DNA of 32,000 nt, taken from positions 60,001 to 92,000 of the forward strand of contig CAZXEQ010000008.1 in assembly GCA_964640155.1 (NCBI GenBank), read 5' to 3'. Position numbers and translations under genes: made by a program. The notes beneath the pieces were generated by a model. It was not told the DNA's origin. It saw nothing but the letters and a program-made list of their open reading frames with translations, and searched no databases. Numbering within the stretch: the stretch's first letter is position 1; each line of letters begins with the position of its first letter. Below are positions 1-32,000 of the stretch, piece by piece. This DNA is from an uncultured bacterium (GTDB taxonomy: Bacteria; Auribacterota; JACPWU01).

Positions 1-7
1 TCGACGC

Positions 8-9550: not shown

Positions 9551-9557
9551 AAGGGGG
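9551..9557 (+). promoter_or_regulatory. Shine-Dalgarno-like AAGGGGG, 9 nt upstream of TTG 9567
   Basis: A purine-rich AGGGGG lies at canonical spacing from the only start-type codon between the in-frame TGA (9546-9548) and the hydrophobic N-terminal peptide. Confidence 0.5.
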
Positions 9558-9566
9558 CGCACCCGT

Positions 9567-9638
9567 TTGAAGAAATTTATTGCATCTTTATTAAGCATTC
9601 TTCAACTTTTCTGGTCTATTCCAGAAGATTTATTTGCT
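9567..9638 (+). other. Putative Sec signal peptide (M)KKFIASLLSILQLFWSIPEDLFA | QD
   Basis: A basic KK n-region is followed by a hydrophobic core of about 13 residues, then a small-residue site (LFA) before an acidic/polar mature N-terminus. Judged by eye only. Confidence 0.5.
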
Positions 9639-12600
9639 CAGGATTTTCAAGAGCCGTCCAATGCCGTTCCTATTGCTGAAAATCCTTCTTCTGATTCCTT
9701 CATTCCTTTGAAACAAGCTCGAGAAATTCAAGAGCATGAGCAGTATTTGCAAGACAAACAATTTCAAATGCAGGCCTTGCGGTCCAGTCATTCTTTAATT
9801 CGCTCTCCTTTTTCTAAAAATCCCAATCCCTTTATGAATGTGAATGATCCCGTTCAATCTTTTAAATCTCTAGATTTTCAAACTCAAAATATTCATCGAC
9901 AGTTGCGTTCATTGGCAGAGATGGAACTCAGGCGTATTGCGGCCTATATGGAACGTTATGTTCTGGCTTACAATAAAGATAAAAGCATCAAAAAAACCAC
10001 TTACTTTAATGCTGTTCCTATTCGAATTGAAAATGAGCGTTTGGTCGATTCTCACGGGAAGCAGACAATTCGAAACACGAGAAATATGAAGTATAACGAG
10101 AAACGCCAGTTAATTTCTTATGAAAGCGAATCTTTAGATGCTTTAGGTAACACGACAAAGACAACATGGAAAGAAGGCACTTACTATACGAAATCTGATG
10201 AACAACTGAATGCTCGTACAAAAGAAGGTTATGTAAAATCTTATACAGAAATGGTTGAACTTCCAAGCGGGGAAGTCATTACACGTCGGAGAGATAATAT
10301 TCTTTATTATAACAAAAAAGATGAAGAGCTGAATTCGCGTTTTGTTCAAGAACAAATCGCAGGCTACACGGAAACTTATGTTTCTAATCAGGCTCCCGAT
10401 GCACCGCGTCTTACGGTTTGGTCAAATGCAACGTATGTGAAACAGCCCTTTACACCAACTTCTGAGAATCCAGACCCAGCAGGTGGTTATGCAAAGAAGA
10501 AGGCTTTAAAAAATCTTAAAAAAGAGCCAGATATTCTTTTAACTTCTTTTCATGAGGAAACAACGGTACTTGGTTTAACATCTGTTCGAGATATTAACAC
10601 GATTGAATACAACGAGTATGAAGAACAGACATCCTATCATGAGAGAATTGAAAGACTAGGTCTTCTATATAACAACGAATTTCGTGGAGGTCGATATGAT
10701 GAATGGGGGCGACTCATTCAATATAATATTCGAAGCGAAGTAGGTGGAGAAGTCACTATTACAGAACGGTTGGAAACTGAATATACATCAACTGGACTTA
10801 TTTTAAGGTATGTTGAAAAAATAACCTATCCCAATGGAGTAGTTGAGGAAGTTGAATTTATAGAACCTGAATATAATGAGATAGGACAGCTTTTAGGATT
10901 TATACGTATTACCAACACAGAAGAGGGAGAAATTAGGACTACACGTAGTGATATTGAATACAATAGCTTGGGTTTAGAAACATCCTACACGGATACCATT
11001 GAAAGCGAAGGTCTCACAACGATCATTGAGATGAGTGACATTACTTATAATGAAAATGGACTCATTTATAGTTTTTTACAAACTAAAACTGAGATAGGAA
11101 GTTCGCTGGAATGGGGAGAAGTTTTTGACATTGATCGCGTGACTGTCACGGAACGTGTTTACACGCGTTACAACGGTGTAGGTCAAGAAACAGAATATTT
11201 TGAACGCGTGCAAGATCCTTTAGGTTTTACAGAAGAAACGTTGCGATCAGGCATTCTCAGAAATCAAGCGGGTAGAGTGACTGCATATCATGATGTGATT
11301 CATAGAGAAATTGCAGGTGTGATTGACGTACCACTGCGTACTGAGAGTGGAGAATATGTTTATGGTCCGGATGGACAAATTCAAACTCGCCGTGAACAAA
11401 CTGAGCAGGTGATAGAGCTAGAAAGAAATTTTGAAGGACGTTACAACTCTGGCGGAGAGTTGATTTTTAGTCGTGAGACTGAAAGAAATGAAGCTATGCC
11501 TGATTTAACCATTATTCGTACCCGTCAAGGGATGGAGTACACACGAGGTCATTTAACAAACTTCATTGAGATTCTTGAAGAAACAGGACCGGGAATCTAT
11601 CGACGAGCTCAGACCACAAGATCTGGCACTCAAATTGACCGTCGTGGGCGACCTATTCGGTATCAGGAATTTTATCAAAAAGGTGATATTGAAATTTTAA
11701 GAATTCGTGACTCGATTGTCTATTCTAATCGAAATCTTATTTTGAGTTATCGTGAAATAGAGCAGCAAGGTTCTGTTGTAACCATTCGAGATGTTATTCA
11801 AACGCAATATGATTATTTTGAACGCGAAATTTTTTCACGCTATCAGCTTCAAAGAGGAATTTTAAGAGAAGAGCATCTTGTTCGTAAAACTTACAATGCT
11901 TTGCATCAATTAAGAGGATTGGTAGAGGAAATCAGAAGTAATGCAACAGCTCTTTCGAGGGTGATGCGGCAGGGTTATTTTTTCTATAGTATTGCAGGTC
12001 AAATTTTGGGTTATCACAAAGAGGAAGAAGAAGCAGGACAATACCGTTCTTCTACTGGAAGGGAAGTGGTCATTGACCGAGAAACCGTGAGCGACCGAAC
12101 TGAAATTCAATACAATCGCCTCGGACAAGAAATTTTCAGAAAAACGCTTCATCGAGATATATATGGTTTTCAGGAAAATATTGAAGAGAGTAATATTCAA
12201 TATAATATCTCGGGTCAAGAAGCAAGTCGTAATGTTCGAATTGTACGTACGGGCACGGGTGAAGTTTCTGTTCCAGAAACGGATAGCGAAGGGAATTTTC
12301 TTGTGGATGTGAGTGGAAATTTGATTACTCGACTTGAAACCCAAACGCTTCGGGAAACTTTTGAAAAGAGAATTCATTCTCAGATTTATAATATACGCGG
12401 TGAGCTCATTTCAAGCACTGAGGAAATAAGATCTAGCGCAACTCCTGATAAAACACTTATTCGTACTTTCCAAGATGCTTTTTATAATGACAACGGTGAA
12501 CTCACAACTTATCGAGAAATTTTTAGAGAAAGAGGCATCTATCAAGTGTTAGGAATGAGTTATCCTCTCGATTCTGTGAAAGAGATTTTATGGAGCGGAA

Positions 12601-15600
12601 TCGAATATGATGACTTTGGACGAATTTTGACAAGCATGCAGACGATTGTGGAAAATTTGGGAATTGCCATCTCTCGCGTTAGAAGAAATGAACTTTTCAA
12701 CCCCATAGGACTTATCGATCATTACACCGAAACTGAACAAAGAGGGGCGAGCAGCATTAGAACCCGACGACGTATTGATAGTCAATATGATGCATGGGAT
12801 AGGGAAATCAGTAATGTCGAGACTTCTAGCAAATTAGACGAAGCACAACATTTTCAGAATTTCACTGAGTATAATTTCTTGAACCAAATTTATGAAACAC
12901 GTCAAATCATTCAAAGCAATTTAACTCCACTCATTCAAAATATTACACGCACAGGAATGATGTATGGCGGCGTGGCTGGAAATTTTCTGTTAGGCTATCG
13001 TGAAATTGAGAATACTCAAGGATCTTATACCGGAATAGATGGTGTTCTTGTCGCTATTGATCGCACAAAACTGATAGATCGATTAAACACTTCATATAAT
13101 CGTTTAGGACAGGAGATAGAACTTAGTGAGAGGCGACAGCTTCCGAATGGAGTATTAGAGAATTTTACGCGCTTCGGAATTCTCTATAATGAAAAGGGGC
13201 AGGTGATTGCAAGAGATGATGTTTTGCGTAAACGTGCTCAAGCTGTTGTGACTATTCCTACTCAAGATGGCAATGGGGAGGAAACTTCGGTTCTAGAAAC
13301 AAATACCGCCATTTTAGATCAGACAGAACTCAGTCAATGGCGACTAGGGAGTTACAACACGCAAGGTCAACTTGAAAGTTATACAGAGACCATTCAAAGT
13401 AATGCAAATGCTTTATCCCAAACTAGAATTTGGCAAAATGCAAATTATGATGAAGAAGAAAGACTGGTTTCTTATCAAGAAACGCTAAGAGATTATGGGC
13501 AATATATAGATGCCTTGGGTGTGGAACGCCGAATAGATAAAACGATCGTTCAAAATAGAAATCAAATGCGTTATAACACTCAAAATCAATTGATTTCTTA
13601 TGAAGAAGAATTAATGAATGAATATGGAGAAAGAAGTTTGAGGGAGTGGCGAAACGCCACATATGGTCCCACAGGACTCATTCAATCTTATCATGAAGAA
13701 ATTAATCAGAATATTTTAAGTATTTCCTCTTTTGACTCTCGCATGACTCGTCGTGATTGGAGTCAAGCACGGTATGATGCTTTGGATCAACTTATAGGAT
13801 ATAGAGAAGAAATTATAGATCCGTATGGTGTCTTGGAAACACGTATTCGAGAAAACACAACCTATAGCGGTTTGGGGTTTATTGAAAGTTACCGAGATCA
13901 AATGAGTCGTTTTGGAGATACCATTGACCCCTATGGAGTTAGGGTCTTACTTGATACAAGAAAAACTATTAACTGGAATGCTAGGGGCTACAATCGATAT
14001 GGAGAGTTATTGAGATATCACGAAGAAGTGCGTGATCCTGCTTTAGCACAAGTTGTCGTTACAGATCATTATGGGATGACTCGAGATCTATTGGGGCAAA
14101 TTCGTTCTTATCAAGAGAGCATCCGTGCCAATGGAAGTGCTTTAGATGCTTCATCTGGGATAACGCTCAGTCTTAATCTTCTTCAACGACGTACCGTACA
14201 GGTACCTCTTTATAATTTGCTGGGCCAAGCCCTCGAAGGACAAGAATCTGAGATTCAAATGGGAGATGGTTTTAGAACGCAAAGAGAAGTTCAAAAAAAT
14301 CGTATGGTGTATCAAGGTTCAGAGCTTGTTCAATACGAAGAAATCACAACGCGCGACTCTAGTCTTTTAACCCAACACAGAGTTCGAGAGCTGACCCTTA
14401 TTGGTTCAAAAGGACAAGTCACAGGATATAGAGAATACACCCGAGAGTACGGGACGGATTCTCATGGGATAACCTTGGACCGCACATCATTTATTGAACA
14501 ACAAAACATTTTGTATGATCCGTTGGGAAGACTTTTTAGTTATGAAGAAATGATGATGGATCCCTACAGCGTTGAGCATAGAACAGCAAGAACAGAAATG
14601 TATTACGATGATCAAGGCCGTTTGATCAGTCATAGAGAAAAGAGAGAAAGAAGTGATATTCCTGGTCAAGTAAATATCAGAAGATTTTATGGAGCTCAAT
14701 ATAACCCTTTTGCACAACTACTCAGTTATATTGAAGAGGAAGAAGGCTTTGGAACAACTGTTCAAAGAATTCGTACAGATGTGCGTTATGATCGTCAGGG
14801 GAATATCATTCATTATCTTGAAACGATTAATGACAGAGGAGTCCGTACTCAAAACATTTTCAGTAATGCCCGCTACAATGGTCTGAGGCAATTAATGGCT
14901 TATCGTCTTACAAGTGCAAGTCTTGGTCAAACACAAGTATTTGATTTTAGAAATGCTCGATATGACGGCGATCAAAGACTTGTCTATTATGAAGCTATTT
15001 TGGAACCTTATCGAGGGAGTGGGCATATTATTAATATCACATGGAGCAATGCTGTTTATGACAGTTTGGGTCGTCTTTTAAGTTCTCGAGAAGAACGAAC
15101 CAGTGGTTCTTCACTGGAAGTTATTGATACGAGCTCTATTGGTTATGACAGTGAAAATCGAGTGAGTGATTTTACCCGAACAATTCATAAAACAGACTCA
15201 GGCCTAGATTGGACACTTACTCAAGTCAGAAGCAGTATTCTATACGATGGTCGTTCAGATACAGTCATTGCGTATAGAGATGATATGAATGAAAACGGCA
15301 TTTTATGGATGCAAAATTATCAGGTAACAGCTCAAGATTCCTTAAGAAGAGTGACTGACTATCAAAGGCAAACCAATCGTAGTGGAGTGACTCAAACTTT
15401 CACGAGGCAGAACATGCTTTATGATGATGCAGGGGCATTGCTTCAAGGCGCTCTAATTGGTTACACTGATCAGGAGTTAGATAGTCGATTCCCAGGTTTG
15501 GTCGAACAAACAGAGCATCAAACGCTTGGCATTAATAGTATGGGGTTGGAAACAGATTTTCGAGAAGAGACAGCATTAAATGGTGCTCTTTTGAATAGCA

Positions 15601-18600
15601 CTGAAACCCGTGAGCGAAGCGGCATTAGCTATACTGCAGATGGCATGATGGAGTCTTGGCAGGATGTGATAACGATTGGTAGCGAACGAAGAATAGAGCA
15701 AATTTCCAATAGTCAATGGAATGACTTGGGCCTTCTCTTAAATCAGGATCGACAAATTCGTCATACCGCAACAGGGCTGGATGTGACAGAAACGGTTCGG
15801 CTTTCTTTGGGCTATGACCGGCAAGGTCGATTAACAAACCAAACAGAGGTTGTGAGAAACAGCAGCGCGCCTGACATCACAACGACAACAGTAGTAGATA
15901 ATATTATTTATGGAACAAATGAACAAAGATCTGCGTATAGAGAGCGGGTTATAACTGATGGCATTGGAATAGATCCTTGGACAGTTACAGGAACTTATAA
16001 TTCGCTTGTTTACACGGATGGGCTTTTATCTGCTTATACGCGTCAAACAATGGATAGTCGTTCTCCCGATGCATCCCGACAATCCAACTTTAGTTCACTT
16101 CGTTATAGTCCCGATGGACTTTTACTAACATTCTCTCGTGAAGATATTGAACGCTCGCCCACAATGAATGTGACAACAACCGTGGATCGTCTTCAAACTC
16201 AATATGATGCTCGAGGTAGAGAGATTGGCGCTTCCGAAAGAAGTTCCGACTCTGCGCGTTCAGGCCTTGAATTGACAACAACGGTTGCTAGAACCTATAA
16301 CTTAAATGGACAGATTTCTGTACTAACACAAGCAACTGAGGCGAGAGGCAGCGATGGGTATTCACTAACCACGACTGCGACTCGAAATGCTATTATTTAT
16401 AACACGCTCGGACTTATGACATCATGGTTGGATACCTCTACAGAATCTGCACATCCTGTTCTTACTCAAGAACAAGTCAATAACGCTAGATGGAATCATT
16501 TAGGTCAATTAACTTCATACGAAGCTGTCAATCATTCAGCAGGTCCAGGTCTAGATGTGACTGAAACAACTCAAACAACGCTTGGATATAATCGTCAATC
16601 TCAAGTCAACCGAATTGAACAAAGATCGACAAATTCTAGCAGCCCAGATCTCACAACTTCCACGACGCAGTCTAACATCAACTATGGAAGAGATGGCAAT
16701 GTAACAGATTATCGCCAGACGCAACAGTTTTCGGGCGTAGGCTTAACCCCTTGGACGTTAACAACAAACTATGCTTCTTTGAATTATCGCAATGACCAGC
16801 TTCTGTCCTACACAGCGACAACCACAGACTCTCGCTTTTCAGGCCTGCAAAATGTTTTGATGAGAAGTGCTTCAACTTATAATGATAATGGCTTTTTAAA
16901 TACCTTTGTTGAAGAAAGAATGGATTTGGGCGCTGGACTTAATGTCACTACAACAACACAGCGAATGCAAACGACATATAACACTCATGGAGAAGAAGTT
17001 GGTTCTGTGGAAAATATGAGGGCCTCCAATCGCCCAGCATTACAAGTGACTTTAACAAATACAAGAACCTACGCAGCAAATGGAAGAGTGTCTTCTTGGT
17101 CTGAAAGAAGAAATGAAAATGGAGGCCTGGATTATTCTCTAACCAGCACTTCCGTTCGAAGTGCCATCACTTATGATTTAACAGGAAACTTGACAGGATG
17201 GATAGATGTCGAAACTACCAATCGTGATCAAATTGTTTTAACGGAGCGTATTTCTGATGTCAGAACAAATCGCTTGGGACAAATGACGAGAGCTTCAAGT
17301 GAAAGCCAAAGAGCCACAGGTGTTTTATCAGAAACAGATAATATTGAAAGAAGATTTACTTATAGTCCACAAAATTTGATGACAAGTTTTAGCGAAACAA
17401 CAACTTATGATCCTATGCGTACAGCACGTGATGGTTTAGAAAGAACGATTTATACTCTTTCAGGAATGATTCGATCTGCCTCAGGTCTTTTAACATCTTA
17501 TCGTGAAAGTTGGGACCAACAAAACTCAGATCCTCTTCGAAGCACAATTGAAACGGTAAACACTTCTGGCATTACTTATGCGGCAGGACAAGTTAATTCT
17601 TTCGATACTCAATATGCCAACACTCTTAATCCTACGCTTAATTCTCAATATGAATTTTCAAATATTCAAAGAAATTTAATAGGCCAAATCACCTCTTCAG
17701 ATGTCACTGTGACCAATCTTTCTGGGAGATCTTCTTATGAGGAGACTTTGGATTATGATATTCGTGGGCGCATTGAAAGTCGCCTCGAAGTCAATCCTAG
17801 CACTTCAACGATTTTAGAAGGTTGGGATCAAATTCGATATAACGATCAAGGCCAAATCAATAGTTTTGATTATATTGATTCAACAGGGACCACACACAAT
17901 AGTGGTATTGCGTACACAGACCTGAGTTTAACTCCCGATGATAGTATGATACCTCATCCAGAAATTTTATGGCGACATGGGAGTACAGTTATAGGGAATA
18001 GTGAATTGGGGATAGTGACTAGTGCAAAAGAAACGTCATTGCGAGAAGGCGGAGCCGACGAAGCAATCTTATCTCTCCAATCTCACTTAATAAATTCTGA
18101 ACTCTCAACGCGACATGCTGATTTAAATATTTCACAATCCACAATTCACAATCCACTCATCATAAGTATTTTAGACCGTCCTGTGCTGCCAAATGTAATT
18201 CCGCTTCAACGTTTAAGCGGAACTGCTTCGACGGGGGCCCTGGTTTTTAGAGGTACAACAACGCAAATAGAAAGAAGCGGGACAACTTATAATGCTTCTG
18301 GACAAGTCACAGGCTTTGTCGAAAGAACAAGAATTTTTGGGACGATTACCAATCCCGATGGATCAGTTCAGGAAATCCAAATAGAAACTTCTGTGAATCG
18401 AGTGGCCACAGTCTATGACATCTTTGGTCAGGAAATTGGATTTGAGCAGATTGAACGTGATGCCTCAGGAGTTGAAACGCAGGTTATTCGATCGAACATC
18501 ACCCGGAATGAACTGGGAATCATTATCGGTTTCACAGAGACTCGAAAAATTATTTTAGATCCAGATCGTCCTAAGGAAGAAGAAGGTGAACTTGTTGTTA

Positions 18601-21600
18601 CTCAAATCAGAGAAATTCAGTCTTTCGATCGTTTTGGCCGAATCATTGCATTCATTGATCGTATTATCACGGATGGATATTACAACAATCCCTTGAATTA
18701 TGGAACCTCAGTGACAGGTGAACCTAGTAGACTGCGTACCGAGGAGACCACATATCGCACAAATACAGAATATGATGCGTTTGGACGAATCACACGAACT
18801 TCTGAAACCTACGTTTCCAGTGTTGAATCAGCAAAAACGATTACGATCGATAAGGCCTTCGGAGATTTTGATAGTGATGGCTATGCTACACACACCGAAC
18901 AAAAAATGCGCGAACAAGGTCGCGATGAATTTGGAAATGAAATTGATGTAACTCGTGAAATCATTCGAAGCGATATTTTGAGAAATGCATTAGGTTTGGA
19001 AATTTCTTATCATGAAGAAATTTCAGCTCTCATGGCGGGCATGACTAACTTTTTACAACAGCAAATAAGAGAGTACCGTGCTTCTCGGTACAGCATTCAT
19101 GAAGGTCGTGTTTTAGAATATAAAGAAAAAATTCAAGATTTAATTAAAAACTCCACTCAAAAAATCCATAAGCATGACATTGAATATACAGCCAGGGGCA
19201 AAGAAAAGAGCTTTATCACAGATATTACAGAAACATTACAACCGGCGACTGGTGACCGGCGACTGGTGACTACCTTAAAACGAATCGCAGGATCAAATTA
19301 TCAATATAATCTTTTAGGTCAGCTGATCAGTTCGACGCAAATCATTTCTGAACAATTACAGGGTCGTCCCATTAAAGAAACCAAAGTCCAATTTGGTCAA
19401 GCAACTTACAACCGCCTCGGACAATTGCAATCTTATAAAGAAGCAAGCACGCAACATATAGAAACAAGCGATAGCGTAAACACCCAGAAGCCTGGAGCAA
19501 CAATAAAAGATATTAGTCAGATTCAATATTCGAAATTAGGCTTGCAAGTCGCATCAATTGAGAAAGTTTACGAGAGCAATGTATTTCAATTCGAACGTCA
19601 GGTTTTGGATCAACACTATGATGTGGCAGGAAGACTTGTTGAAGATCGTACGGTGAATATACAATCCACAGGCGAGAAAATCGAATCTTCGCGCTCCAAC
19701 TTAAAATACGACAAACATGGGAATCTGACTTCTTATCAAGAAAGCGGAACATCAAACGCTACCGGTTCTTATTCTTTTTCTAGAAATCAGACCTTTAATG
19801 TATTTGGGCAACTTTCAAGCTTTAAAGAAGAGGGGACAAGATTCTCAAGCCCTCCTTATGAGGCTTCGGAAGCAAATATCGTTTATGATGATTTAGGACG
19901 AAAAGAGAGTTATCAACGACTTGAAAAGGATTTGTTTGGAACAAGACAAATCGAAAGAACTTCTACTGAATATGATTCGCTGGGACATGTTCAGTCTTAC
20001 GCTCAAAATACTCAAGAAACACTTACTAACGGCAAGCAATCCCAGATACAGGAAACTCGATCTGAAATGATTCATGATGATTTTAATCGGTTGATTTCTT
20101 CTAAGAATTATACCAAGGGGACGAGCCAAGGAAGGGCACTCGAGCAAACCGTCAGTATGAACGTGAGTAGTTTTGATGAGGTGGGTCGTACGATTGAATA
20201 TAAGGAAATCACTCAAAATCATGTTGAATCTAGAACCATGCAATCGATAGTACAGACTTCGTATAATGAAATGGGACAACTCACTTCACAGACCGAACGT
20301 CTTTATGAAGATGGTTTTCTTCAGCATGACCGCACAACAACTCATCAAGTTTATGATTCTTATGGTCGTGTTGTCTCAGATAGAACCGTTCTATCTTTAG
20401 CATCTGGAGAAATAACTCACTCTGAGCGAACAAAATTAACTTACGATGAGGTCAATAATCTTATTTCGTTTTCAGAAAAAGGATATTCAAACGCAAATGG
20501 GAACTATGAATTTTCTAGAAATCTTATCTATGATTCCATAGGCCAAATTTCACAAACAAACGAGGAAGGCAAGCGATCTTCTAATGGAAGCTATTCGCTT
20601 CTTGAATCAAAAATTGCCTACGATCAATTAGGTCGAAAAATTTCATTTTTATCTGAAGAAAAAGACGTTTATGGAAACCATTTAACAGAGCGCCAATGGA
20701 CAAGTTTTGATTCTAAAGGGCGGACCAATGCTTATCGGCAAACAACAGAAGGAAATTTAAAAAATGGCAAATCCGCTAAAGCTGAAGAAACTCGGGAAGC
20801 AATGACTTATGATAACGCCAATCGTTTAACATATTGGAAAGAGCATACCAAAGACTTAACAGACACGGGCTCTTTTGACCGTACGACTGAAACATATGTT
20901 CAAAGTTTTGATCATGCCGGTCGAAGCTCTCGCTTTGTTCAAAAAATAGACAATCACAGAGAAGGCTTAAAATCAGAAAATATCATTGATCAGTCTTACA
21001 ATGATTTAGGGCAAATCAAAAATAAAAAAGAAGCGGTCTTTTTAGAGGGCTTATTCCAACAGGAAAAAACTTCTTCAAATCAAATTTATGATGAGTCCGG
21101 ACGCATCATCTCTGATGAATCCATAACACGTTTGGCTTCAGGAGAAGTGACGCATGCAAAACGTGAAAACGTAATCTATGATGATGTAAGCAATATGGTA
21201 AGTTTTTCCGAAAGCGGTTCTTCGAATGCAAGTGGAGATTATTCTTTTTCCCGTGAGCAAGAATTTGAAAAAGGTGAGGTGGTTGCTTATCGCGAGAAGG
21301 GAACACGCTCTTCCGATGGTGCTTATACGGCTCAAGAATCTAACATTCAATACGATGAATTAGGTCGAGTAAGTTCTTTCCATCGAATTGAAACAAATTC
21401 AATGGGGACATATATTACACAAAGAACTTCAACTCATTATGATCGTTTGGGACGCATGGATGGTTATGTGCAAGACATTGAAAGCAAATTCCTAAATGGA
21501 CAATGGACCAAAGTCACAGAAACAAAAACAGATATGGTTTATGATGAAATGAATCGTCTTACGAGTTATCAGATTCAAACACAAGGAGCTAATGAAATAA

Positions 21601-24600
21601 GAAATATTGATGAAACAAAAACCGTTACCATTTCACAATTTGACCACGCAGGGCGAGCTTCAGCCCTTAACCAAATCTCTCAAGATCGCATCACTGGCCA
21701 CAAAACAGAAGTGAATATCACTCAAAAGTATAATGCTCAAGGCCAAATTTCTCAAAGTCAGGAAAAGGTATATTTAGACGATGTCTATCAGTATGAAAGA
21801 AATGTCCGACAGCAAACGTATGATGCTCAAGGAAGAGTAAATTTAGAAGTAGGAACTTTGGAGTATCCGAGCGGAGAACGTATTTCCTATCGCAAAGAAA
21901 ATATGCAGTATGACAATTATGGAAATTTAGTTTCTTATTCTGAAAAAGGAAATTCAAATGCTCACGGACAATATTCTTTCACGCGCACACAAAACTTTAA
22001 CGCATTAGGCCAAGTGATTTCTTCTCATGAAGAAGGCACTCGTGCATCAGGTGGTGACTATACAACAGATCAATCAAATGTAGTTTACGATGATTGGGGC
22101 CGTGTCATTGCTTATCATCAAGTTGAGAAGGATGCTACGGGAACACATGTTACAGATCGACTCTCTACGGATTATGATTCTCAAAATCGCGTGATTGGCT
22201 ATCACGAAAAAAGTGAAGATCAACTAGGTAATGGTGTAACAACTCACACAGAAACAGTTGAGAGTGGAATTGCTTATGACCATCTGAATCGTATAACCAG
22301 CCGCAATACACACACATGGGGTAGTAATTCTAAAGGGGACACCTTTGATAGTACGGTTGTTATTTCAGTTCTTGAATTTGATAAGGTGGGACGTTCTATA
22401 AAAACTCATGAAACGGTCACAGATCATAAAGAAGGAAAAACTCAAAGTCATGATATTAGCTATCAATATAACCGCAAAGGTCAATTAAGCGAAAAACGTT
22501 TTACGGATGAAAAAGGCGATGAAATTATTCATAGATACCAATATGACCGCACAGGTGTTCTTGAAACTCAAAAAATGGAACATCCCGACTATATTCTTGT
22601 TTTAGATCGTTTTGGTGACCAGATTGGATATGAAATTGGTTGGCGTGCTTTGGAAAGAATATTAGATTCCCAGGAAGTAGAAGAGGCCTTGCTGGATCAT
22701 GGCTTAGAGGCGAACAAAGTTGAATGGGAAGATAAAAATGATCAGATGCAGCAGGGATTTAGAGGTAGAGGTATGGGCAAGGGGACAAAGTCTCCTGAAG
22801 GTTTTGTTCAATATCCTCCATCGCTCGAATCAGTTGAAGCAGAGATAAGAAATCTCGAAGCAAGACTAGCTGATCTAGAAAGCACAAAATCTCCATGGCA
22901 AGAAGCGGAAAGAAATCTGATCAAAGCCGAGCTTACCTATGCACGGGCTCAAAGAGCCTATTTGGGAGCTCGAACTCCACAAGAAAAACAAAGAGCTCTC
23001 AGGGCCATGGAATTTGCTCACAAAGAAGTGGTAAGAGCTGAAAATGCAAATCAGGGAGGTCGATCAGGATTTAATTCAGGAAGAGTTCAACGTTATAATC
23101 CCCGCCAAATTGATGGACCTGTTCGGCAAGAGGGCGAAACTCAAACTTTAGAGGATGGGTCTAAACAGAAAAATTATATTGCCGAGGGCAAAGGATGGAT
23201 GGGAAACGTGTTTAGCATTACCATTTCTGGACGTCAGGCCTGGATTACGAATGGCCAGGGTGAAAAAGTTGCTGAGCTTCGGGTAGAAGGAAATAAACTC
23301 ATCATTGATAATTTGGTGACGGGACATCAAACAACCATGGAATATGGTCAATACGGCCTTGAAAGTTCAACAGAGCTCAGCAACATTTACGGCTTTGAAG
23401 TTAGAAATGAAAATCATACGTATACTACGGATGCTTCCGGTAGGGTCACAGAGCATCACTATACCCTTCATGATGAAAATGCAATGGGTGTACAAACCTC
23501 TGAAGGTTATAAGGCTACAGGCGGAGGCGTCTTAAATGCTTGGGGGACTACAAAGTTTAATGATCAAGGTCAGGCTGTTTTTCATGAAGAAAGTCGAACA
23601 TTATCAAATGGTAAATGGAATGTGGCATATGATTTCTATCTTCGCATCGAAGGCATTACTTATGACCGTTTGGGACAGCAAGTCTCTTTCCATCGCGAAC
23701 AAAGAGAAGGGGGATTGGGTATTCGAGGCTATAACAGCAATATTACCCGAGAAGGTACAGTCGATGAAACAGGGAAGCTAAATTATTATAAAGAAACAGA
23801 ACATACCACGATGGGGAAAAAGGTCACCATTGACCGGATTCACGAAGCTCGTCCGGAATATGATGGAGACAAAATCATCAATGAACATCGAGAAAAAACA
23901 TATGAAAAGATTGTTGTTCGAAAATCTTGGTGGGAAAAACTCTTTAGTTTTATTCTTCCCATTCTTGCCGTAGTTGCTTTTTTCATCCCAGGCATTAATG
24001 TCATTGCTGCTGCAGGAATTGCTGCTGCATGGAATTTCATCACAGGAATGGCCATGGGCCAAAGTCCTCTGCAAGCTTTCTTAGGTGCTGTGATTAGTTT
24101 TGCCACAAGCATGGTGGCCGCTGGCATCGGAGGTATTATGCAAGGCTTGACCAGTGCTGCCAAAACAGTCGCAAGCAGTGTCTCGAATGCTTTCATGCAG
24201 CAAGTGTCCGGAACGGCTGTAAGAACATTAGTCGCCCGAGTCATTTCGACAGCCATGACCACAGCTTTTGGAGATAGACTGGGCCGATGGGGCTCTTTAA
24301 TTGCTAGCGTTGGTTCTATGTTTGGCTCTAGCTTTTTTGGCAGCGGAAACAGCTTTGCAAGTGCACTTTCGACTTCGAATTTTGATTTTGGACAAATTGC
24401 AAAAGAAGCGGTTCTTACAACGGCAAAGTTTGCTGCTTCAAGTTTTCTTAGTAGTGCTCTTGGCGATTCTATTTGGATTAATTTTGCTGCATCGGCAATG
24501 GGAGCAGTTACAGATTCTATGATTGATGTAATAGGTCAAAACCTAACAGCTTATTTCTCTAAACCTGAAGGGTCTGAATTGACTCGGGATGGATTGATTC

Positions 24601-27600
24601 CTGATGGAGCAAAAAAAGATAAAGAAGATGGCTGGACTGAGCATTATCAGATACGCAACGGAGAGTTTGTTAGAGACGAGCGTGGAAATCCGGTTCCAAT
24701 TGCTCTTACTCCAACCAAGGCTGAAGTGATCAGCGTACAAGAAAAGGGATTGGATGGTTTCATTCATGAGAAAATTACTGGAGCTACATTGATAGATGAA
24801 GCTGGGAATCAAATTACTTGGGATGCTCAAGGGCAAATCACAGCAATTATTCCTGCTGAAAATCTTGCGAATACATCAACACAAAATATTTCGACACCTA
24901 AAGAAGCAATACGTAAAGATGCTGTGGATTTACCTTCCAATGAATCACTGGAATTGGCAATAGATTTACGAGGTATTGACTTAACTTCTGAAACGAATCT
25001 AAAAGTGGAAGACAAAAGTGCATGGGATAAGGCGAAAGATTTAGCTGCGTCGGGTCTATCTTCCATTTATCATCTTCTAATCCCTGAAGCAGGTGCTGCA
25101 AGTATTGAAGTATTGGGTGTTGGTGAACCTGGACATGAAATCTTGACTCAAGCTGCAGCTCAAACAACAGGTTTATTCACGGATGATGAAATTGATATCA
25201 TGATGAGTCATGTTCGAGATAATGATCTTGGCTTTGTTGAAGCAATAGATCCTCCACGATGGAAGTCCTTCTATGCAGGCGCAAGTTTGGCTAAATTAGG
25301 TGAAACCCATTACGGAAACTATCAATTTCTCCATGCGATGAAAGCGGAAGGCGAAAGTGATTTAGCCACAAGAGACAAAATGTTAAATTGGGTTCATAAT
25401 ACGAATATAGAAGTTCTTGATCTGATCAAAGAGGGTGATTGGAATAAAGCATTAGCAAAAGCCAGTTCTGTTATGCATCTCATTCAAGATAGCTATGCTT
25501 CAGGTCATGGAGTGAGAGATTCCGAATCAGGGCAAATCACAGAGTTTTATAATTATCACGTTCAACAAGAAGATTCTTCTTTGGCTGCCATGCACAAAGA
25601 AGGAGACAAAATCTGGACTCTTACAACAACCACAGTACCTGGTGAACCATGGATGTTTGAAAATCAAAGTTTAGCAGAGCCTTTAAATTATAGCCCTCTT
25701 GTCCCTGATGTCACTTTCTCGACTCCTACATTAAAAACTGAATACCAAAAAGCGGTTCAAACAACAGCAAATTATCTGAATTTATTAAAAGAAGGCGCGG
25801 ATCTAAAGAAACTAGACACTTTCTTTGAAAAAACATTTGAAATGAAGCCTGCGACTTTAGATCAAAACCAATGGCAAAATGATCTTTTTGAAGAAATACC
25901 TTTGCTCCCAGAGTTTAACAGTCCCTTATGGGAAGACGTTAGTCCCCGATATGATTTTAATTTACCATCCAATACAAATCTGATTCAGGGTGGGGAGGCT
26001 AGAGGGAATGTTGAATTTATTGAACATGCGGGAAAGAAATATACAAGTGAGAAACAAAGCGTTCATACTCCTTTTTCCGAAAAACCATTTGTTTCTCACA
26101 GTACTGGCCAACATTCATCTATTCAGTCTAATGAGTGGCCTAGTATTTCAGCGATTCAAGCCGAACCGGGTGTAGAGGGTGCAGATGAGAATGGAAGAAT
26201 GCCTCTTACAATTGAATTTCACATGCCAAAAGATTCTCTCATGCAAGAAAATTCTCAAATTTCTAATGCTCCTCAAAACACCTTGTCTAATTATGAAAAA
26301 TTTAAAGTTGGACTTGATCTTGCAGAATTCACACTTCTTCATTTTCTTGTTGGAGAAAAAGCGCCCACCGTTTACAAAGGCTTGGTGGATACCAGAGCAA
26401 AGGTACAAGATTTTGCTTGGAATCAAGCGGGATTAAAAGAGACGACCCAGTTTTTAGCTTTCACAGGTTCTTCTATTCTTCAAGATATCAATACGCTCTA
26501 CGAATTAGCAGATTCTGGTGTTACCAAACTGACAGGGGCTAATATTGATGAGTGGAGCATTGCTGCAATGCAAGCTTCTCAAGGAACCCCCATACCCTTT
26601 GACGATATACTCTCTTATGGAGGAGCTCTGATCTCAAAAGGCTTTCAAGGAGCAGGAACTCTTTCGAAATACTTAAACTCTTTTTCTAGGGCGGAGAAAT
26701 TAGCAGAAGAATCTTATGATCTAACTAAAATAGAAAGAAGAACGATTAATGTATTGAACGACAATGGAACTGTTCGAGAAATAGCTCAGCAATCTTATTC
26801 GTCAGAAGCGCTAAAAGCTTTAGATGAAGTTGGTCAAGGATCTCAAATTAAAAGGGCAGGCAGTTTTCCAAATTCAAATACAACAGATGCTCAATTTTGG
26901 TCACAAGATCACCCTTTGACCAATCCTAATTTTGCGGATGACATTGGTGCAGCAAGTTTTGACTCTTCATCCGTAGATTTTGTGATTGGAGGTAAAGCTA
27001 AAACTGAAGCAAACTTTATTACACGAGAAGCTCCATCTTATGGAAAACATACGGGGGGAAAAGTAGAAATCGTGGCAGATCCCGGTGATATAAAAGCAGA
27101 TTATTTTCATATGCCAGAGAAATCAACTGCAGATTTAGGTATTGATATAAAAATTGATTCTCAAACAGGGAAGGTTTCATATACTGAAGTTGAGAATTTA
27201 GTCACTCCTCGCCTCAACTTAACAACAAATCCTCAAGGAAATAGTAACGGACTCATGGTTTTAATGCCCATGAGCTTGAGTTTGCCTTTTACAGAAAACA
27301 CACAAAGCTTGAAAAATTCCACTGGCTCTCCTCTTAATATATCCCAGAGGACTACTTCGCTGAGAGGGGATGGGGGAGTTATCGGATTAGAAAATAATTC
27401 TAGAAACAATGAAATCTTACCTCCCAATAATGGAGGTGATTCTTGGATTTCTCAGAATGGTACCGATTGGAAGGACTCTATCCGTCAATCGAATTTCCAA
27501 TACGAAAAACAAATTACGAACATGCGCTATGACAAAAGTGGAAAACTTATTGGGGATAGCAGCATTACAAGATTATCTACTGGAGAAATTATTGAATCGA

Positions 27601-30600
27601 CCCGAAGTGATATTGAATATAACGCGCTTGGTCAAATCACTTCTTTCTCCGAAAGTGGAAATTCTAATGCAAGCGGGAGTTATTCTTTTACGCGCACACA
27701 AGAACAAGACATTCTTGGACACATCACCTCTATCAAAGAAAAGGGAACAAGGGCTAATGGTGGAGCATACACATCAGAAGAGAACAATATAACCTATGAT
27801 GACTTAGGAAAAAAACTTACCTATCAAAGAACTGAAACAGATGACATGGGTAAACACATCACCAATAGAACATCAACAAACTATGATGCTCAAGGTCGAG
27901 TGAGTGGATATGAACAAAATACCATCGATGAATTTGCTAATGGAAAACGTGCAACTGGAAAAGAAACTCGTTCCGCTATTCAATATGATGCCCAGAACAG
28001 AATAACCAGCTGGACATCTCACACCAATGGAACAGGGACAGACGGCAAAGTTTTTGATATCACAACACAAACCCAAGTCCAAGTATTTGACTTTGCTGGT
28101 CGAGCTTCTCAATATACTGAAAATATTACAGATCATCGATCTACAGAGTCATTGCGAGCACAGCGAAGCAATCTCATTCATCAAACATACAATTCATTAG
28201 GCCAACTCTCATCTAAAGAAATAAGAGAACAGGGCCAAGACAGCATCCGACAAACCTACAGCTATAACAATGGTGTGTTGAATCAAACACGCGTAGAACA
28301 TCCTGATTACATCATTACATTGGACAAATGGGGCACACAAACATCTATAGAAGAAGGTCCTCGCATTAAAGCAGCTAGAGAGCAAGCACGTAGAGCAGAA
28401 GAGCGGGCAAGAAAAGCACAAAAGGCTGCTTCAAATCTCATGGCCCGATACAAAAAACAAATAGAACAAGAACTACTGAATCAAGCGCTAAAGGCAGTGG
28501 CCATTGATAAGTTCTCAGTAGCAAGTAAATCAATAAATACTGTGTCATTGCGAGGAGCAGCAGCGACGAAGCAATCTCAAACACTTCTTGCTCAATCCCA
28601 AAAATCCATGGCTCAAGCTAAGAGCGCCTTAGCTCAAGCTGAAAACCAAATCAGAAATGCAAAGACACAAAGCGCCAGGGCCCAAGCTGAAGCAGCCAAA
28701 AAGAGCGCTGAAACACAAATAGCTATTGCTCAGAAGAAAATGGAAGAAGCAAAGAAAGCTATGATTAGTGCATCAGGGATAGCGAATCGTGGAAAAGATT
28801 TGTCATTGCGAGGAGCGCTAGCGACGAAGCAATCTCTAGACAGAGCATTAGCTTCTTCTAGGTCTATGTCATCCTCGAAAGTTTCAGTCGGGGATCCATT
28901 CTCAAAAATAGATATCAGTAAATTCAAAATTATATTCAAAGGCAACACAGCTCAAATCAAAGATGCCAATGGCAATGTCTTAGCAGAGGCCAAAACCCAA
29001 GGGAAAACAGTTAAAATTAGCAATAATGTCACAGGCTCTAAAGTAGACATGAGCTATGGAAAATTTGGATTAGCAAGCCTCAAAGAAGTAAACAGCCTAG
29101 GTAAAGAAGTTAGAACTGAAAGCTATAACTACAAGACAGATCGAACAGGAAAAGTCCAAGAACTCAATTATTTAATCAAAGACACAGAGCCCACATCTAT
29201 TCAAACATCTCAAGGCGTTAAATCTGTCATAAGTAGAAAGGCTGTCTACGAAGCCAGTGGCACCATCAAACACGATGGCAAAGGCAGAGTAACTTCAAGT
29301 GAAGAGAATAAAACCTTAAAATCTGACAAAAAGACAATCTATAGCTTCCATGAAGCCCTTACAGGGGTTCAATATGACAGACTCAACCAAATGGTTTCAT
29401 TCCAGAAGCAAACCTCAGAGAAGGGCTTAGGCATCAAGAAATACTCTACAACCATTACAAGAACAGGCGAAGTTGATAGCTCTGGAAAACTCTCTCATTA
29501 CATTGAGAACGAAAGAACCAAACAAGGCAAAGTCAAAATCTCTCGCACATTCGAGGCAACGCCCACATATCAAGGCGATACACTTATATCTGAAAACAGA
29601 ATCATGACCCATGAAAAGATCAAACAGAGCAGTGGGATCTTCCAAAGAATAGTTGGAATTGTTTTACCCATAGCCTTAGGCCTAATCCTTGCCCCTGTCA
29701 CAGCAGGAATCAGTACAGCCTTAAGTGCAAGCATTGGCTCAGTAGGATCGCAAATGGTAGCCCATGGAGTCACAGGCTTCATGAGCAACATGGTTACATC
29801 TATTGCCATGGGAGCTAAGCCTAATGAAGCATTAAAGGGAGCACTTCTTACAGGAGGCATAGCAGGTATAGGAGCAGGAGCTAACATCTTTGGAAGCAAA
29901 ATCTTTGGACTAAGCGTACAAACAGCCAAACAATCTCTTGAGTCCAGCGTAACAAGACAAATCATCACCCGCTCCATCATGAGTGCAGCAGGAGAAAAAT
30001 TAGGACCTGTGGGCTCCGCAGTGCTAGGCGGAGCATTGTCAGGCGTCATGACAGGTGATCCGACACAAATAGCACTTGGTACCATTAAAGGAGCAGCTTC
30101 AGGCTTCATAGGTCAGGCATTAGGCAGTTCCACAGGAGCCCAGCTTGCCAATGCAGCTATTGGAGGCTTTACAGACGCAGCCATTGATCGAATTGGACAA
30201 GAGATTAAAACAATTGCGTATAACGTAAAGGCCCGAGACGCATTGCCGAATAGTGCTCAAGCTTACAAAGGCCAAGATGGCCGAATCAAATGGGCGATAC
30301 AGGACGAAGAGAATGGAAGAAATACTATTTATCAATATAATAGCCAAACCAACCAATTTGAAAATCAATATACCAACGTTAGAAATAGTGAAGTACTCGG
30401 GACTGCATATCTTGCAGGAGCCAATGGAATAGCCTTCATCCCAACACTAGAAGCTAAAGGATCTGTTACACACAACAATGGCATCACTACCTATTACGAT
30501 AAACAAGCTAACTTCATAGAATCAAGACCTGATAATCAATATGCCATCAGAGATACACAAGGAAGACAAATAGGAACTCAACTGCCACTATCAATGTTTA

Positions 30601-32000: not shown

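What the first reader, a model, noticed from the sequence alone, without database searches (positions are those of the whole stretch)
22578..32000. Serial in-frame 'multi-warhead' organisation: two paralogous delivery-plus-payload cassettes in one polypeptide
After the fourth 245-aa super-repeat the protein follows a fixed order. First comes the EHPDYI boundary motif, then a coiled coil, then a beta-rich block of about 240 aa. That block ends in a conserved stretch (ITYDRLGQQVSFHREQREGGLGIRGYNSNITREGTVDETGKLNYY). Next is a Gly/Ala hydrophobic domain of about 200 aa, and finally a unique region of about 950 aa with enzyme-like motifs. At 27522 a fifth super-repeat copy restarts the pattern. The same order is repeated from 28296 (VQYDRLNQMVSFQKQTSEKGLGIKKYSTTITRTGEVDSSGKLSHY; hydrophobic domain ending AIGGFTDAAIDRIGQEI versus AMGAVTDSMIDVIGQNL), followed by a completely different C-terminal region. 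Known Rhs/YD, CDI and Tc-type polymorphic toxins carry one C-terminal toxin tip. They keep alternative tips as separate orphan cassettes with immunity genes. Here the alternatives are concatenated in frame, with no stop and no intervening gene. This resembles MARTX-style multi-effector logic built on a YD-type scaffold. The window ends inside cassette B, so more cassettes may follow.
Basis: partly seen in the sequence, partly recalled or inferred. Interest (0 to 1): 0.85.

Follow-up and report, generated by a model that had tools for sequence, protein, structure and literature searches.

The report
Chlamydial giant protein, two toxin-like cassettes
One 7,589-residue secreted repeat protein from an uncultured environmental chlamydia carries two copies of a membrane-insertion module in a row, each followed by a different tail, which looks like two toxin genes fused into one, but no enzyme or toxic activity could be shown for either tail.

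Summary
One uninterrupted ORF starts at TTG 9567 and runs past the window end. It contains two paralogous units, A (22578-27470) and B (28296 to the end). Each unit has the EHPDYI motif, a helical linker, a YD-type beta sheet, a roughly 200-aa Gly/Ala/Ser hydrophobic helical domain, a beta domain and a unique tail. A and B align with E values from 1e-59 to 1e-21.

An exhaustive profile search found the full-length protein (7,589 aa). It ends 111 aa beyond the window, so there is no third cassette. The same search found only four relatives, all in groundwater Chlamydiae MAGs. Two of them are stand-alone single cassettes with their own signal peptides. Family members are recombination mosaics with unrelated tails. 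One tail type is followed in two genomes by a conserved small membrane protein, and in one of those loci an orphan Rhs-CT cassette lies further downstream.

My best reading is a polymorphic-toxin-like family in which two units were fused in frame. B is closer to other family members than to A, so this is a fusion, not a recent tandem duplication.

Not supported:
- MARTX logic (no cysteine, no RTX repeats).
- Strict Rhs membership (no core or DPxGL motif).
- Enzyme identity of the tails (no homologues; the fold prediction failed).

The parts
9567..32000 (+). Gene for the giant protein P0001. Residues 1-7478 of 7589 lie in the window; the stop codon is 111 codons beyond the window end.
   Evidence: Stop-free frame. 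SD-like taaggggg at 9551 and TTG at 9567. Identical to database protein P0001.
9567..9641 (+). Predicted Sec signal peptide, MKKFIASLLSILQLFWSIPEDLFA|Q.
   Evidence: Read directly from the sequence. Similar N-termini occur in P0004 and P0005. No signal-peptide predictor was run.
19320..22577 (+). Super-repeats 1-4 (245 aa, 735 nt each) made of YD-like hairpins. They form the end of a roughly 4,000-aa YD-like stalk that begins near nt 10674.
   Evidence: Self-BLAST. DNA repeat family D1. RHS_repeat 21.8 bits. YD motif counts.
22578..22595 (+). Boundary motif EHPDYI, cassette A.
   Evidence: Conserved as [ES]HPDYI[ILV][TV]LD..G.Q in all five instances in the family.
22596..23171 (+).
   Evidence: 53% A/E/K/Q/R/L, 7 prolines. 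Aligns weakly with linker B. No coiled-coil predictor was run.
23172..23921 (+). Beta block A, a YD-type beta sheet ending in ITYDRLGQQVSF...GKLNYY and IINEHREKT.
   Evidence: 41% identical to beta block B. The fold is inferred from the model of B.
23922..24554 (+). Hydrophobic Gly/Ala/Ser helical domain A (211 aa), with a 75-residue stretch free of charged residues.
   Evidence: Aligns with domain B and with P0002, P0003 and P0005.
24555..24851 (+). Beta segment A after the hydrophobic domain, weakly conserved.
   Evidence: P0001 residues 4901-5096 match P0002 629-802 at E 4e-13.
24852..27470 (+). Unique tail A (873 aa), followed by a Ser/Asn/Thr/Pro-rich linker.
   Evidence: No similarity to any family member or any database. 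The AlphaFold model was unusable, pLDDT 32. It has one H-x3-D-x5-H string.
27471..28295 (+). Fifth super-repeat copy, which opens unit B.
   Evidence: E 1e-41 to 1e-48 against copies 1-4. 53-58% identical to P0004, closer than to its own copies at 41-48%.
28296..28313 (+). Boundary motif EHPDYI, cassette B.
   Evidence: The 63 residues from here on are 97% identical to P0002.
28314..28883 (+). Ala/Lys/Gln-rich helical linker B, with an internal 36-nt repeat at 28543 and 28801.
   Evidence: 63% A/E/K/Q/R/L, 1 proline. Repeat D3.
28884..29630 (+). Beta block B, a YD-type beta meander.
   Evidence: AlphaFold with a 6-sequence alignment gives strands at residues 15-248 with pLDDT about 90. Foldseek top hits are Tse5 Rhs, teneurin-3 and TcdB2-TccC3.
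29631..30221 (+). Hydrophobic Gly/Ala/Ser helical domain B (197 aa).
   Evidence: Seven predicted helices at low confidence. 61% identical to P0003.
30222..30971 (+). Beta domain B after the hydrophobic domain, conserved in P0002, P0003 and P0005.
   Evidence: pLDDT 65-83, all beta.
30972..32000 (+). Unique tail B. 343 of its 454 aa lie in the window. Contains the string IIHVGHSQDG.
   Evidence: No homologue found.

Best explanation
The region is the C-terminal 3,250 residues of a 7,589-aa, cysteine-free, Sec-signal-bearing protein of an uncultured environmental chlamydia. The protein belongs to a very small, unannotated family that behaves like a polymorphic toxin family.

Each functional unit has this order:
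1. EHPDYI motif
2. Helical linker
3. YD-type beta sheet
4. LI-x-E-[HN]-R motif
5. A roughly 200-aa Gly/Ala/Ser-zipper hydrophobic helical domain
6. A beta domain
7. A variable tail

The window's protein carries a long YD-repeat stalk followed by two such units. The second unit, together with the super-repeat in front of it, derives from an in-frame fusion or recombination with a P0004/P0002-like paralogue.

Inferred mechanism, not shown: after export, the hydrophobic domain of each unit inserts into a target membrane. There it either forms a pore itself or carries the adjacent tail across, so the single chain would deliver two different activities. Cleavage near the conserved EHPDYI boundary would release two P0002-like toxins. 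That step is speculation.
For: Shown:
- The ORF is continuous and identical to a called 7,589-aa protein.
- The A/B homology is highly significant.
- An exhaustive HMMER search of 1.84 billion representative proteins finds only five real family members: P0001-P0005, the first being the window's own protein. Those that carry a name are 'Chlamydiae bacterium' MAG proteins.
- P0002 and P0005 are stand-alone units with their own signal peptides.
- Tails are mutually unrelated, except P0003 and P0005.
- Segment-wise identities are mosaic. The beta block of B is 89% identical to P0002, while the hydrophobic domain of B is 61% identical to P0003 and only 42% to P0002.
- B is closer to other members (46-57%) than to A (33%).
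- The beta block is modelled at pLDDT about 90, and its best structural matches are the YD shells of Tse5, teneurin-3 and TcB-TcC.
- The hydrophobic domains are charge-poor and rich in small-residue zipper motifs.
- The family has 0-1 Cys per protein, while the neighbouring gene product has 15.
- The shared P0003/P0005 tail is followed in two genomes by a homologous 2-TM protein (41% identity, E 2e-36).
- In the P0005 locus (L001), an orphan ORF lying after the small membrane-protein gene hits the Rhs-associated core model above its cutoff (35.7 vs 32.5 bits).
- The P0004 and P0005 genes sit next to integrase genes.
Against: - No tail could be assigned to any enzyme or toxin family or fold.
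- The membrane-insertion role rests only on composition and a low-confidence model (pLDDT 30-43).
- A charge-free 56-75-residue segment behind a Sec signal could equally act as a stop-transfer anchor in the bacterium's own inner membrane.
- No route across the outer membrane is evident.
- No processing protease or known autoproteolytic motif is present.
- Downstream DNA, and therefore any immunity genes, could not be obtained.
- Only one of five family members has the tandem form, and it comes from one assembly.
Confidence: 0.5

Rival explanations
1. Fusion without double function. Two neighbouring paralogous genes became one ORF through loss of the stop codon, intergenic region and signal peptide, or through a MAG assembly join. 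Only the terminal unit B, or neither unit, works as a toxin, and the now-internal tail A is a passenger or decaying relic.
For: - Unit B plus the fifth super-repeat resembles P0004 and P0002 more than it resembles unit A.
- The tandem form is seen once among five family members.
- The source contig comes from an assembly that could not be retrieved for checking.
- A near-identical stretch shared with P0002 (97% over 63 aa) is the kind of sequence that can mislead assemblers.
Against: - Tail A stays open for 873 codons, where off-frame stop density is 6-8%.
- The junction between tail A and the fifth super-repeat lies in unique sequence, not in a repeat.
- No DNA repeat in the window exceeds 77% identity apart from one 36-nt pair.
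- Cassette B is only about 80% identical to P0002 beyond the first 63 aa, so it is not simply P0002 pasted in.
- No relic signal peptide is detectable at the junction.
Confidence: 0.2
2. Not a toxin. The protein is a giant envelope or surface protein (adhesin or fibre) whose two hydrophobic domains anchor it in the bacterium's own membrane. The unique regions are binding or spacer domains.
For: - A Sec signal is followed by very hydrophobic, charge-free segments that would act as stop-transfer anchors.
- No toxin, enzyme or immunity domain was identified in the window.
- YD repeats also occur in non-toxic surface proteins such as teneurins.
Against: - Family traits are typical of conflict systems: unrelated tails on a conserved, recombining module; a co-conserved small membrane partner gene; an orphan Rhs-CT cassette in the same locus; and integrase neighbours.
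- P0005 keeps only the hydrophobic domain plus tail behind a signal peptide. That architecture is hard to reconcile with an adhesin.
Confidence: 0.2
3. MARTX-like multi-effector toxin. A repeat scaffold forms a pore, and an internal protease releases several effector domains inside a eukaryotic host.
For: The protein is giant, has repeat regions, carries more than one unique region in a single chain, and comes from a lineage that lives in eukaryotic hosts.
Against: - There is no cysteine, so neither a CPD nor any thiol protease is possible.
- There are no GGxGxD or RTX repeats and no HExxH motif.
- No Pfam or NCBIfam MARTX domains were found.
- The protein has an N-terminal Sec signal rather than a C-terminal T1SS signal.
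- Each unique region has its own hydrophobic module, unlike MARTX.
Confidence: 0.05

Closest known systems
Rhs / YD-repeat polymorphic toxins (e.g. P. aeruginosa Tse5, PDB 8CP6; PMC10684867)
   Same: - Uses a YD-type beta-sheet scaffold, and Tse5 is the best Foldseek match.
- Has a conserved N-terminal part with variable C-terminal parts that recombine between paralogues.
- As in Tse5, a hydrophobic helical segment follows directly after YD sheet.
- A related locus holds a small membrane partner gene and an orphan Rhs-CT cassette.
   Different: - No Rhs-associated core or PxxxxDPxGL aspartyl-protease plug.
- No PAAR, VgrG or T6SS marker. It has a Sec signal instead.
- The 240-aa sheet of a unit is far too short for a closed cocoon.
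- The tails (454 and 873 aa, plus a 200-aa hydrophobic domain) are far larger than the roughly 15-16 kDa cargo of Rhs cages (PMC10684867).
- The hydrophobic domain is internal and is followed by more protein.
- The unit occurs twice in one chain.
Giant multi-toxin-domain polymorphic toxins (e.g. Streptomyces SACTE_5178, 13,652 aa; Zhang et al. 2012, PMC3482391)
   Same: Several putative toxin regions are concatenated in one giant secreted polypeptide.
   Different: Those proteins combine recognisable toxin and peptidase domains (ART, caspase, lethal-factor peptidase, MCF1-SHE). Here the whole module, including its own hydrophobic domain, is duplicated, and no tail is recognisable.
MARTX toxins
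   Same: Giant repeat-containing toxin with more than one payload per chain (architecture only).
   Different: - No cysteine protease domain is possible.
- No RTX or glycine-rich repeats, and no T1SS design.
- In MARTX the effectors share one translocation apparatus. Here each tail has its own hydrophobic module.
AB-type toxins with a hydrophobic translocation region (diphtheria toxin T domain, large clostridial toxin delivery domain, pore-forming colicins)
   Same: A charge-poor helical segment flanked by amphipathic helices sits next to a catalytic or variable domain. This comparison rests on my own knowledge.
   Different: No sequence or profile similarity was found (for example, no TcdA_TcdB_pore hit; Toxin_trans only E 0.11 in P0005). 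Membrane insertion was not tested.
Tc (ABC) toxins, TcB-TcC cocoon
   Same: YD-shell fold hits to 6SUQ and 6L7I. A giant gene lies immediately upstream on the same strand.
   Different: No TcA, TcB or TcC domains were found in either giant ORF. There is no autoproteolytic core motif.

Membership tests
Rhs / YD-repeat toxin | YD (RHS) repeats recognisable by profile or fold | tested here: inconclusive
   In the window, Pfam RHS_repeat scores 21.8 bits (cutoff 22, E 2.5e-4). The same model scores 26.7 bits in relative P0003. TIGR01643 is below its cutoff. The modelled beta block matches Tse5, teneurin-3 and TcB-TcC first, but with low TM-scores.
Rhs / YD-repeat toxin | Rhs-associated core (TIGR03696) with the PxxxxDPxGL aspartyl-protease plug immediately before the toxin | tested here: not met
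   There is no NCBIfam hit in any part of the protein and no PxxxxDPxG string. The only two DPYGV strings lie at aa 1418 and 1454, inside the repeats. The same model does detect an orphan cassette in related locus L001, so the test works on this lineage.
Rhs / YD-repeat toxin | Closed cocoon enclosing a small cleaved C-terminal toxin | not testable with these tools
   Only a 240-aa sheet per unit was modelled. By size, the tails (454-873 aa) exceed the roughly 32,000 cubic-angstrom cavities reported for Rhs cages (PMC10684867).
Rhs / YD-repeat toxin | Trafficking domain (PAAR, VgrG-binding, TcB-like) | tested here: not met
   There are no Pfam or NCBIfam hits over residues 1-4343. The N-terminus is a Sec-type signal.
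Polymorphic toxin system (sensu Zhang et al. 2012) | Conserved N-terminal or delivery part with unrelated C-terminal parts among paralogues, generated by recombination | tested here: met
   The module is conserved in five proteins. Tails are unrelated. Segment identities are mosaic.
Polymorphic toxin system (sensu Zhang et al. 2012) | Cognate immunity gene directly downstream | not testable with these tools
   The window ends inside the gene and the source contig could not be fetched. In relatives, the P0003/P0005 tail type is followed by a conserved 2-TM protein. This is suggestive only.
Polymorphic toxin system (sensu Zhang et al. 2012) | C-terminal domain is a recognisable toxin or enzyme | tested here: inconclusive
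   No family, homologue or fold was found for tail A or tail B.
MARTX | Cysteine protease domain that releases the effectors | tested here: not met
   There are zero cysteines in 7,589 residues.
MARTX | Glycine-rich or RTX repeats and a type I secretion design | tested here: not met
   There is no GGxGxD string and no Pfam hit. An N-terminal signal peptide is present.
CdiA / two-partner secretion toxins | TPS domain, FHA repeats, pretoxin VENN motif | tested here: not met
   There are no Pfam or NCBIfam hits over the whole protein.
Tc (ABC) toxin | TcA-like partner and TcB/TcC domains | tested here: not met
   The upstream 3,122-aa ORF and the giant protein have no Pfam, NCBIfam or PDB sequence hits.

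The most novel reading that the evidence does not exclude
The protein is a polyprotein of two self-delivering toxins. It would use a previously undescribed membrane-insertion module (EHPDYI to LINEHR, then a Gly/Ala/Ser-zipper helical domain, then a beta domain) that is paired one-to-one with each payload and can be stacked in series on a YD stalk. The conserved EHPDYI boundary would serve as the release site. This would be a new delivery principle for polymorphic toxins, found in Chlamydiae, which are otherwise known for type III secreted effectors.
Probability: 0.2. Interest if true: 0.75.

Novelty: new variant of a known kind. Interest (0 to 1): 0.5.

Why it matters
If both units are active, this would be a natural example of stacking complete delivery-plus-payload cassettes in a single chain. 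That differs from swapping a single tip, as in Rhs, CDI and Tc toxins. It also differs from sharing one translocator among effectors, as in MARTX.

It would also point to an uncharacterised membrane-insertion module, and to polymorphic-toxin warfare or host attack in environmental chlamydiae. The family is tiny (five proteins among 1.84 billion representatives) and has no annotation, so any function assigned would be new.

The practical value is limited for now, because neither tail can be linked to an activity.

Tried and rejected
Searches that found nothing:
- Pfam, NCBIfam and PADLOC scans of every segment, apart from a borderline RHS_repeat hit.
- PDB sequence searches with single sequences and with the module profile. 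Only chance PsbX hits appeared.
- Word-indexed homologue searches with module A, tail A and tail B. These did not even retrieve the window's own protein, although it is in the collection. These negatives therefore understate what exists, at least for very long proteins.
- tblastn of both tails against plasmids.
- Genome, viral and metagenome scans for the source contig. Profile scans returned only the P0004 locus and a 1.1-kb fragment.
- Exact look-ups of P0001 and P0002 for genomic context.

Structure work that failed:
- AlphaFold of tail A without an alignment gave pLDDT 32, which is unusable, so no fold search was run on it.

Ideas tested and dropped:
- hhalign of tail B against the P0002 tail, both of which carry an xHSxG-like string: no relation.
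- A relic signal peptide at the junction between tail A and the fifth super-repeat: not better than shuffled sequence.
- A weak tblastn match of the immunity-like protein inside the upstream giant ORF (E 5e-4): a short motif coincidence in a non-hydrophobic region.
- A zinc-phospholipase-C reading of the HLIQDSYASGH string. I recalled this from memory and nothing supports it, so I do not claim it.
Full report
WHAT IS THERE

The window holds two giant genes on the + strand. The first is stop-free from the left edge (nt 2) and ends with its stop codon at 9368-9370 (3,122 aa in the window). The second frame is open from 9549 to the right edge.

The second gene most likely starts at TTG 9567, behind a taaggggg Shine-Dalgarno-like site. 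It opens with a Sec-type signal peptide, MKKFIASLLSILQLFWSIPEDLFA|Q.

An exhaustive HMMER search returned a 7,589-aa protein, P0001. Its first 7,478 residues are identical to the window translation. The protein therefore ends 111 residues beyond the window. In what follows, residue n of P0001 starts at nt 9567+3(n-1).

CHECKING THE OBSERVATION

- EHPDYI occurs exactly twice, at nt 22578 and 28296.
- The 245-aa (735-nt) super-repeat has four copies before 22578 and a fifth at about 27471-28295.
- Cassette A aligns with cassette B over about 870 residues in four BLAST segments, with E values of 8e-59, 8e-40, 8e-43 and 9e-21.
- The beta block plus hydrophobic domain are 38% identical between A and B.
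- In-frame there is no stop in 3,141 codons, while the other two frames carry 5.7-8.5% stops.
- The two hydrophobic domains are the only strongly hydrophobic parts of the protein. They contain charge-free runs of 75 and 56 residues. They carry 19 and 18 small-xxx-small-xxx-small motifs, against about 1 per 200 aa in the stalk.

Three corrections are needed.
- The conserved module continues for about 100 aa (A) to 250 aa (B) past the hydrophobic domain.
- The 'enzyme-like motifs' are bare strings without any statistical or homology support (and the negative searches listed below).
- No third cassette follows.

STRUCTURE OF A UNIT

I ran AlphaFold on unit B with a six-sequence family alignment (residue 1 of the model is P0001 residue 6440).
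- Residues 10-248 form a confident (pLDDT about 90) meander of long beta hairpins.
- Residues 253-452 form seven helices at low confidence (pLDDT 30-43).
- Residues 458-663 form a moderately confident (65-83) all-beta domain.

Foldseek against the PDB ranks the following first:
- Rhs effector Tse5 (8CP6, E 1.3e-7)
- teneurin-3 (E 1.9e-6)
- TcdB2-TccC3 (E 2e-4)

TM-scores are low, as expected when a 240-aa sheet is compared with whole cocoons.

Pfam RHS_repeat sits just under its cutoff in the window's super-repeats (21.8 vs 22 bits). It is above the cutoff in relative P0003 (26.7 bits). The scaffold is therefore YD-type.

The defining Rhs core is absent, however. There is no TIGR03696 hit and no PxxxxDPxGL motif. 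The same model does detect a classical orphan Rhs-CT in a related genome, so the test works on this lineage.

THE FAMILY

The profile of modules A and B, run against 1.84 billion representative proteins, found only P0001 and four real relatives. The remaining two hits are unrelated repeat proteins. The relatives that carry names are hypothetical proteins of groundwater 'Chlamydiae bacterium' MAGs.

The architectures of the relatives are informative:
- P0002 (1,493 aa): signal peptide, then directly EHPDYI, linker, beta block, hydrophobic domain, beta domain and its own tail.
- P0004 (truncated by the contig end): signal peptide, 1.5 super-repeats, then the module.
- P0005 (1,288 aa): signal peptide, LINEHR motif, hydrophobic domain, beta domain and tail.
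- P0003 (N-terminally truncated): like P0004, with a tail related to that of P0005.

The minimal autonomous unit is therefore hydrophobic domain plus beta domain plus tail. The YD stalk, EHPDYI linker and beta block are add-ons.

The tails are unrelated to each other, except P0003 and P0005. Segment identities are mosaic:

| Segment of B | Compared with | Identity |
|---|---|---|
| Beta block | P0002 | 89% |
| Hydrophobic domain | P0003 | 61% |
| Hydrophobic domain | P0002 | 42% |
| Any segment | A | 19-41% |

The first 63 residues of unit B are 97% identical to P0002.

The fifth super-repeat is closer to P0004 (53-58%) than to copies 1-4 of its own protein (41-48%).

From this I conclude that unit B was not made by a recent tandem duplication of A. 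It is a paralogous gene-sized block joined in frame behind tail A, with later gene-conversion-like exchange among paralogues.

CONTEXT IN RELATIVES

The P0003 and P0005 genes, which lie in two different MAGs, are each followed by a homologous small two-TM protein (41% identity, E 2e-36). Their shared tail contains a further hydrophobic Gly/Ala-rich segment. A membrane-active toxin paired with a membrane immunity protein, as in Tse5/Tsi5, is a reasonable but unproven reading.

In the P0005 locus, the next ORF after the small membrane protein carries NPLNWTDPWGL and hits the Rhs-associated core model above its cutoff (35.7 vs 32.5 bits). It is an orphan Rhs-CT cassette, and an 84-aa membrane ORF follows it.

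P0004 and P0005 both lie just downstream of integrase genes. These are the hallmarks of conflict or toxin islands.

WHAT COULD NOT BE ESTABLISHED

Neither tail of the window's protein could be identified.
- Pfam, NCBIfam and PADLOC gave nothing.
- PDB sequence searches gave nothing.
- Homologue searches gave nothing.
- tblastn against plasmids gave nothing.
- AlphaFold on tail A alone gave pLDDT 32.

The H-x3-D-x5-H string in tail A occurs once, against 0.12 expected, and GHSQDG in tail B occurs once. I do not regard either as evidence of an enzyme.

The DNA downstream of the gene was not obtainable, so the presence of immunity genes is unknown.

MECHANISM

Best-supported reading (confidence about 0.5): this is a polymorphic-toxin-like, Sec-exported, cysteine-free giant protein with a YD stalk and two complete toxin units fused in series.

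The following steps are inferred. The hydrophobic, zipper-rich helical domain inserts into a target membrane. It either forms a pore or carries the following domains across. Cleavage near EHPDYI would release two P0002-like proteins.

The total lack of cysteine in the family (0-1 per protein, against 15 in the neighbouring gene product) fits proteins that act outside the cell or cross membranes unfolded. It also excludes a MARTX-type cysteine protease domain and any papain- or caspase-like processing.

Rival readings:
- A fusion or assembly join in which tail A is a passenger (0.2). Arguments against: tail A is open over 873 codons, the junction lies in unique sequence, and no long near-identical DNA repeat exists in the window.
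- A self-anchored envelope protein rather than a toxin (0.2). The charge-free segments behind a Sec signal could act as stop-transfer anchors.
- A MARTX-like toxin (0.05).

COMPARISON WITH KNOWN SYSTEMS AND NOVELTY

The protein works most like an Rhs/YD polymorphic toxin, but it fails the Rhs membership test on the core/protease motif and on trafficking domains.

Concatenating several toxin domains in one giant protein is already known (SACTE_5178; PMC3482391).

What seems new is the repeated unit itself. It contains its own internal hydrophobic domain followed by a conserved beta domain and a variable tail, is present twice in one chain, and belongs to a five-member family confined to environmental Chlamydiae.

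I rate this a new variant of a known kind. Interest is 0.5: the anatomy is solid and unusual, while the function is entirely inferred.

Noticed in passing
window 2-9367 (+): A second giant ORF lies immediately upstream. It is 3,122 aa, open to the left edge of the window and contains 15 Cys. It has no internal repeats, no hydrophobic segment, no similarity to the giant protein, and no Pfam, NCBIfam or PDB hit. Its function and any link to the downstream gene are unknown.
   Followed up: partly
window 11130-13520 and 15390-17290 (+); P0001 aa ~522-1313 and ~1941-2574: Two older repeat families occur inside the YD-like stalk, with periods of roughly 315 aa and 260 aa and 33-39% identity. They are distinct from the 245-aa super-repeats.
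   Followed up: no
whole P0001 (window 9567-32000): There is no cysteine in 7,589 residues. Relatives have 0-1 Cys each, while the upstream ORF has 15. This looks like family-wide cysteine avoidance.
   Followed up: partly
window 28543-28578 and 28801-28836: A 36-nt direct repeat (92% identical) spaced 258 nt apart lies inside helical linker B. It encodes SLRGAAATKQS and SLRGALATKQS, a small internal duplication.
   Followed up: no
window 23843-24535 (-) and 29573-30112 (-); also L001 3325-3984, L002 1236-1778, L003 9830-10429: All five hydrophobic-domain coding regions have a 180-231-codon stop-free stretch on the opposite strand, in the same relative frame. This is most likely a by-product of Gly/Ala/Ser-rich codons, but the consistency is striking.
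   Followed up: partly
L001 7130-7621 and L002 4368-5015: Homologous small two-TM proteins (41% identity, E 2e-36) lie directly after the related tails of P0005 and P0003. They are candidate immunity proteins and hit the STM3941 family weakly, below its cutoff.
   Followed up: partly
L001 7710-8255 and 8265-8519: An orphan Rhs C-terminal cassette (NPLNWTDPWGL; TIGR03696 35.7 bits, above the cutoff) is followed by an 84-aa membrane ORF, in a Chlamydiae MAG next to the P0005 gene.
   Followed up: partly
L001 1547-3220; L003 2073-6779: Integrase genes lie directly upstream of the P0005 and P0004 genes, with a primase as well in L003. This suggests these toxin-like genes ride on integrative elements.
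   Followed up: no
N-termini of P0001, P0004 and P0005: The signal peptides are unusually similar (M..I/F.SSLL..LQIFW..P), hinting at a shared, possibly dedicated export step.
   Followed up: no
tool behaviour, vs 26, 29: The word-indexed homologue search failed to return the window's own 7,589-aa protein, although that protein is in the collection. Negative results from that tool are therefore weak for giant proteins.
   Followed up: yes
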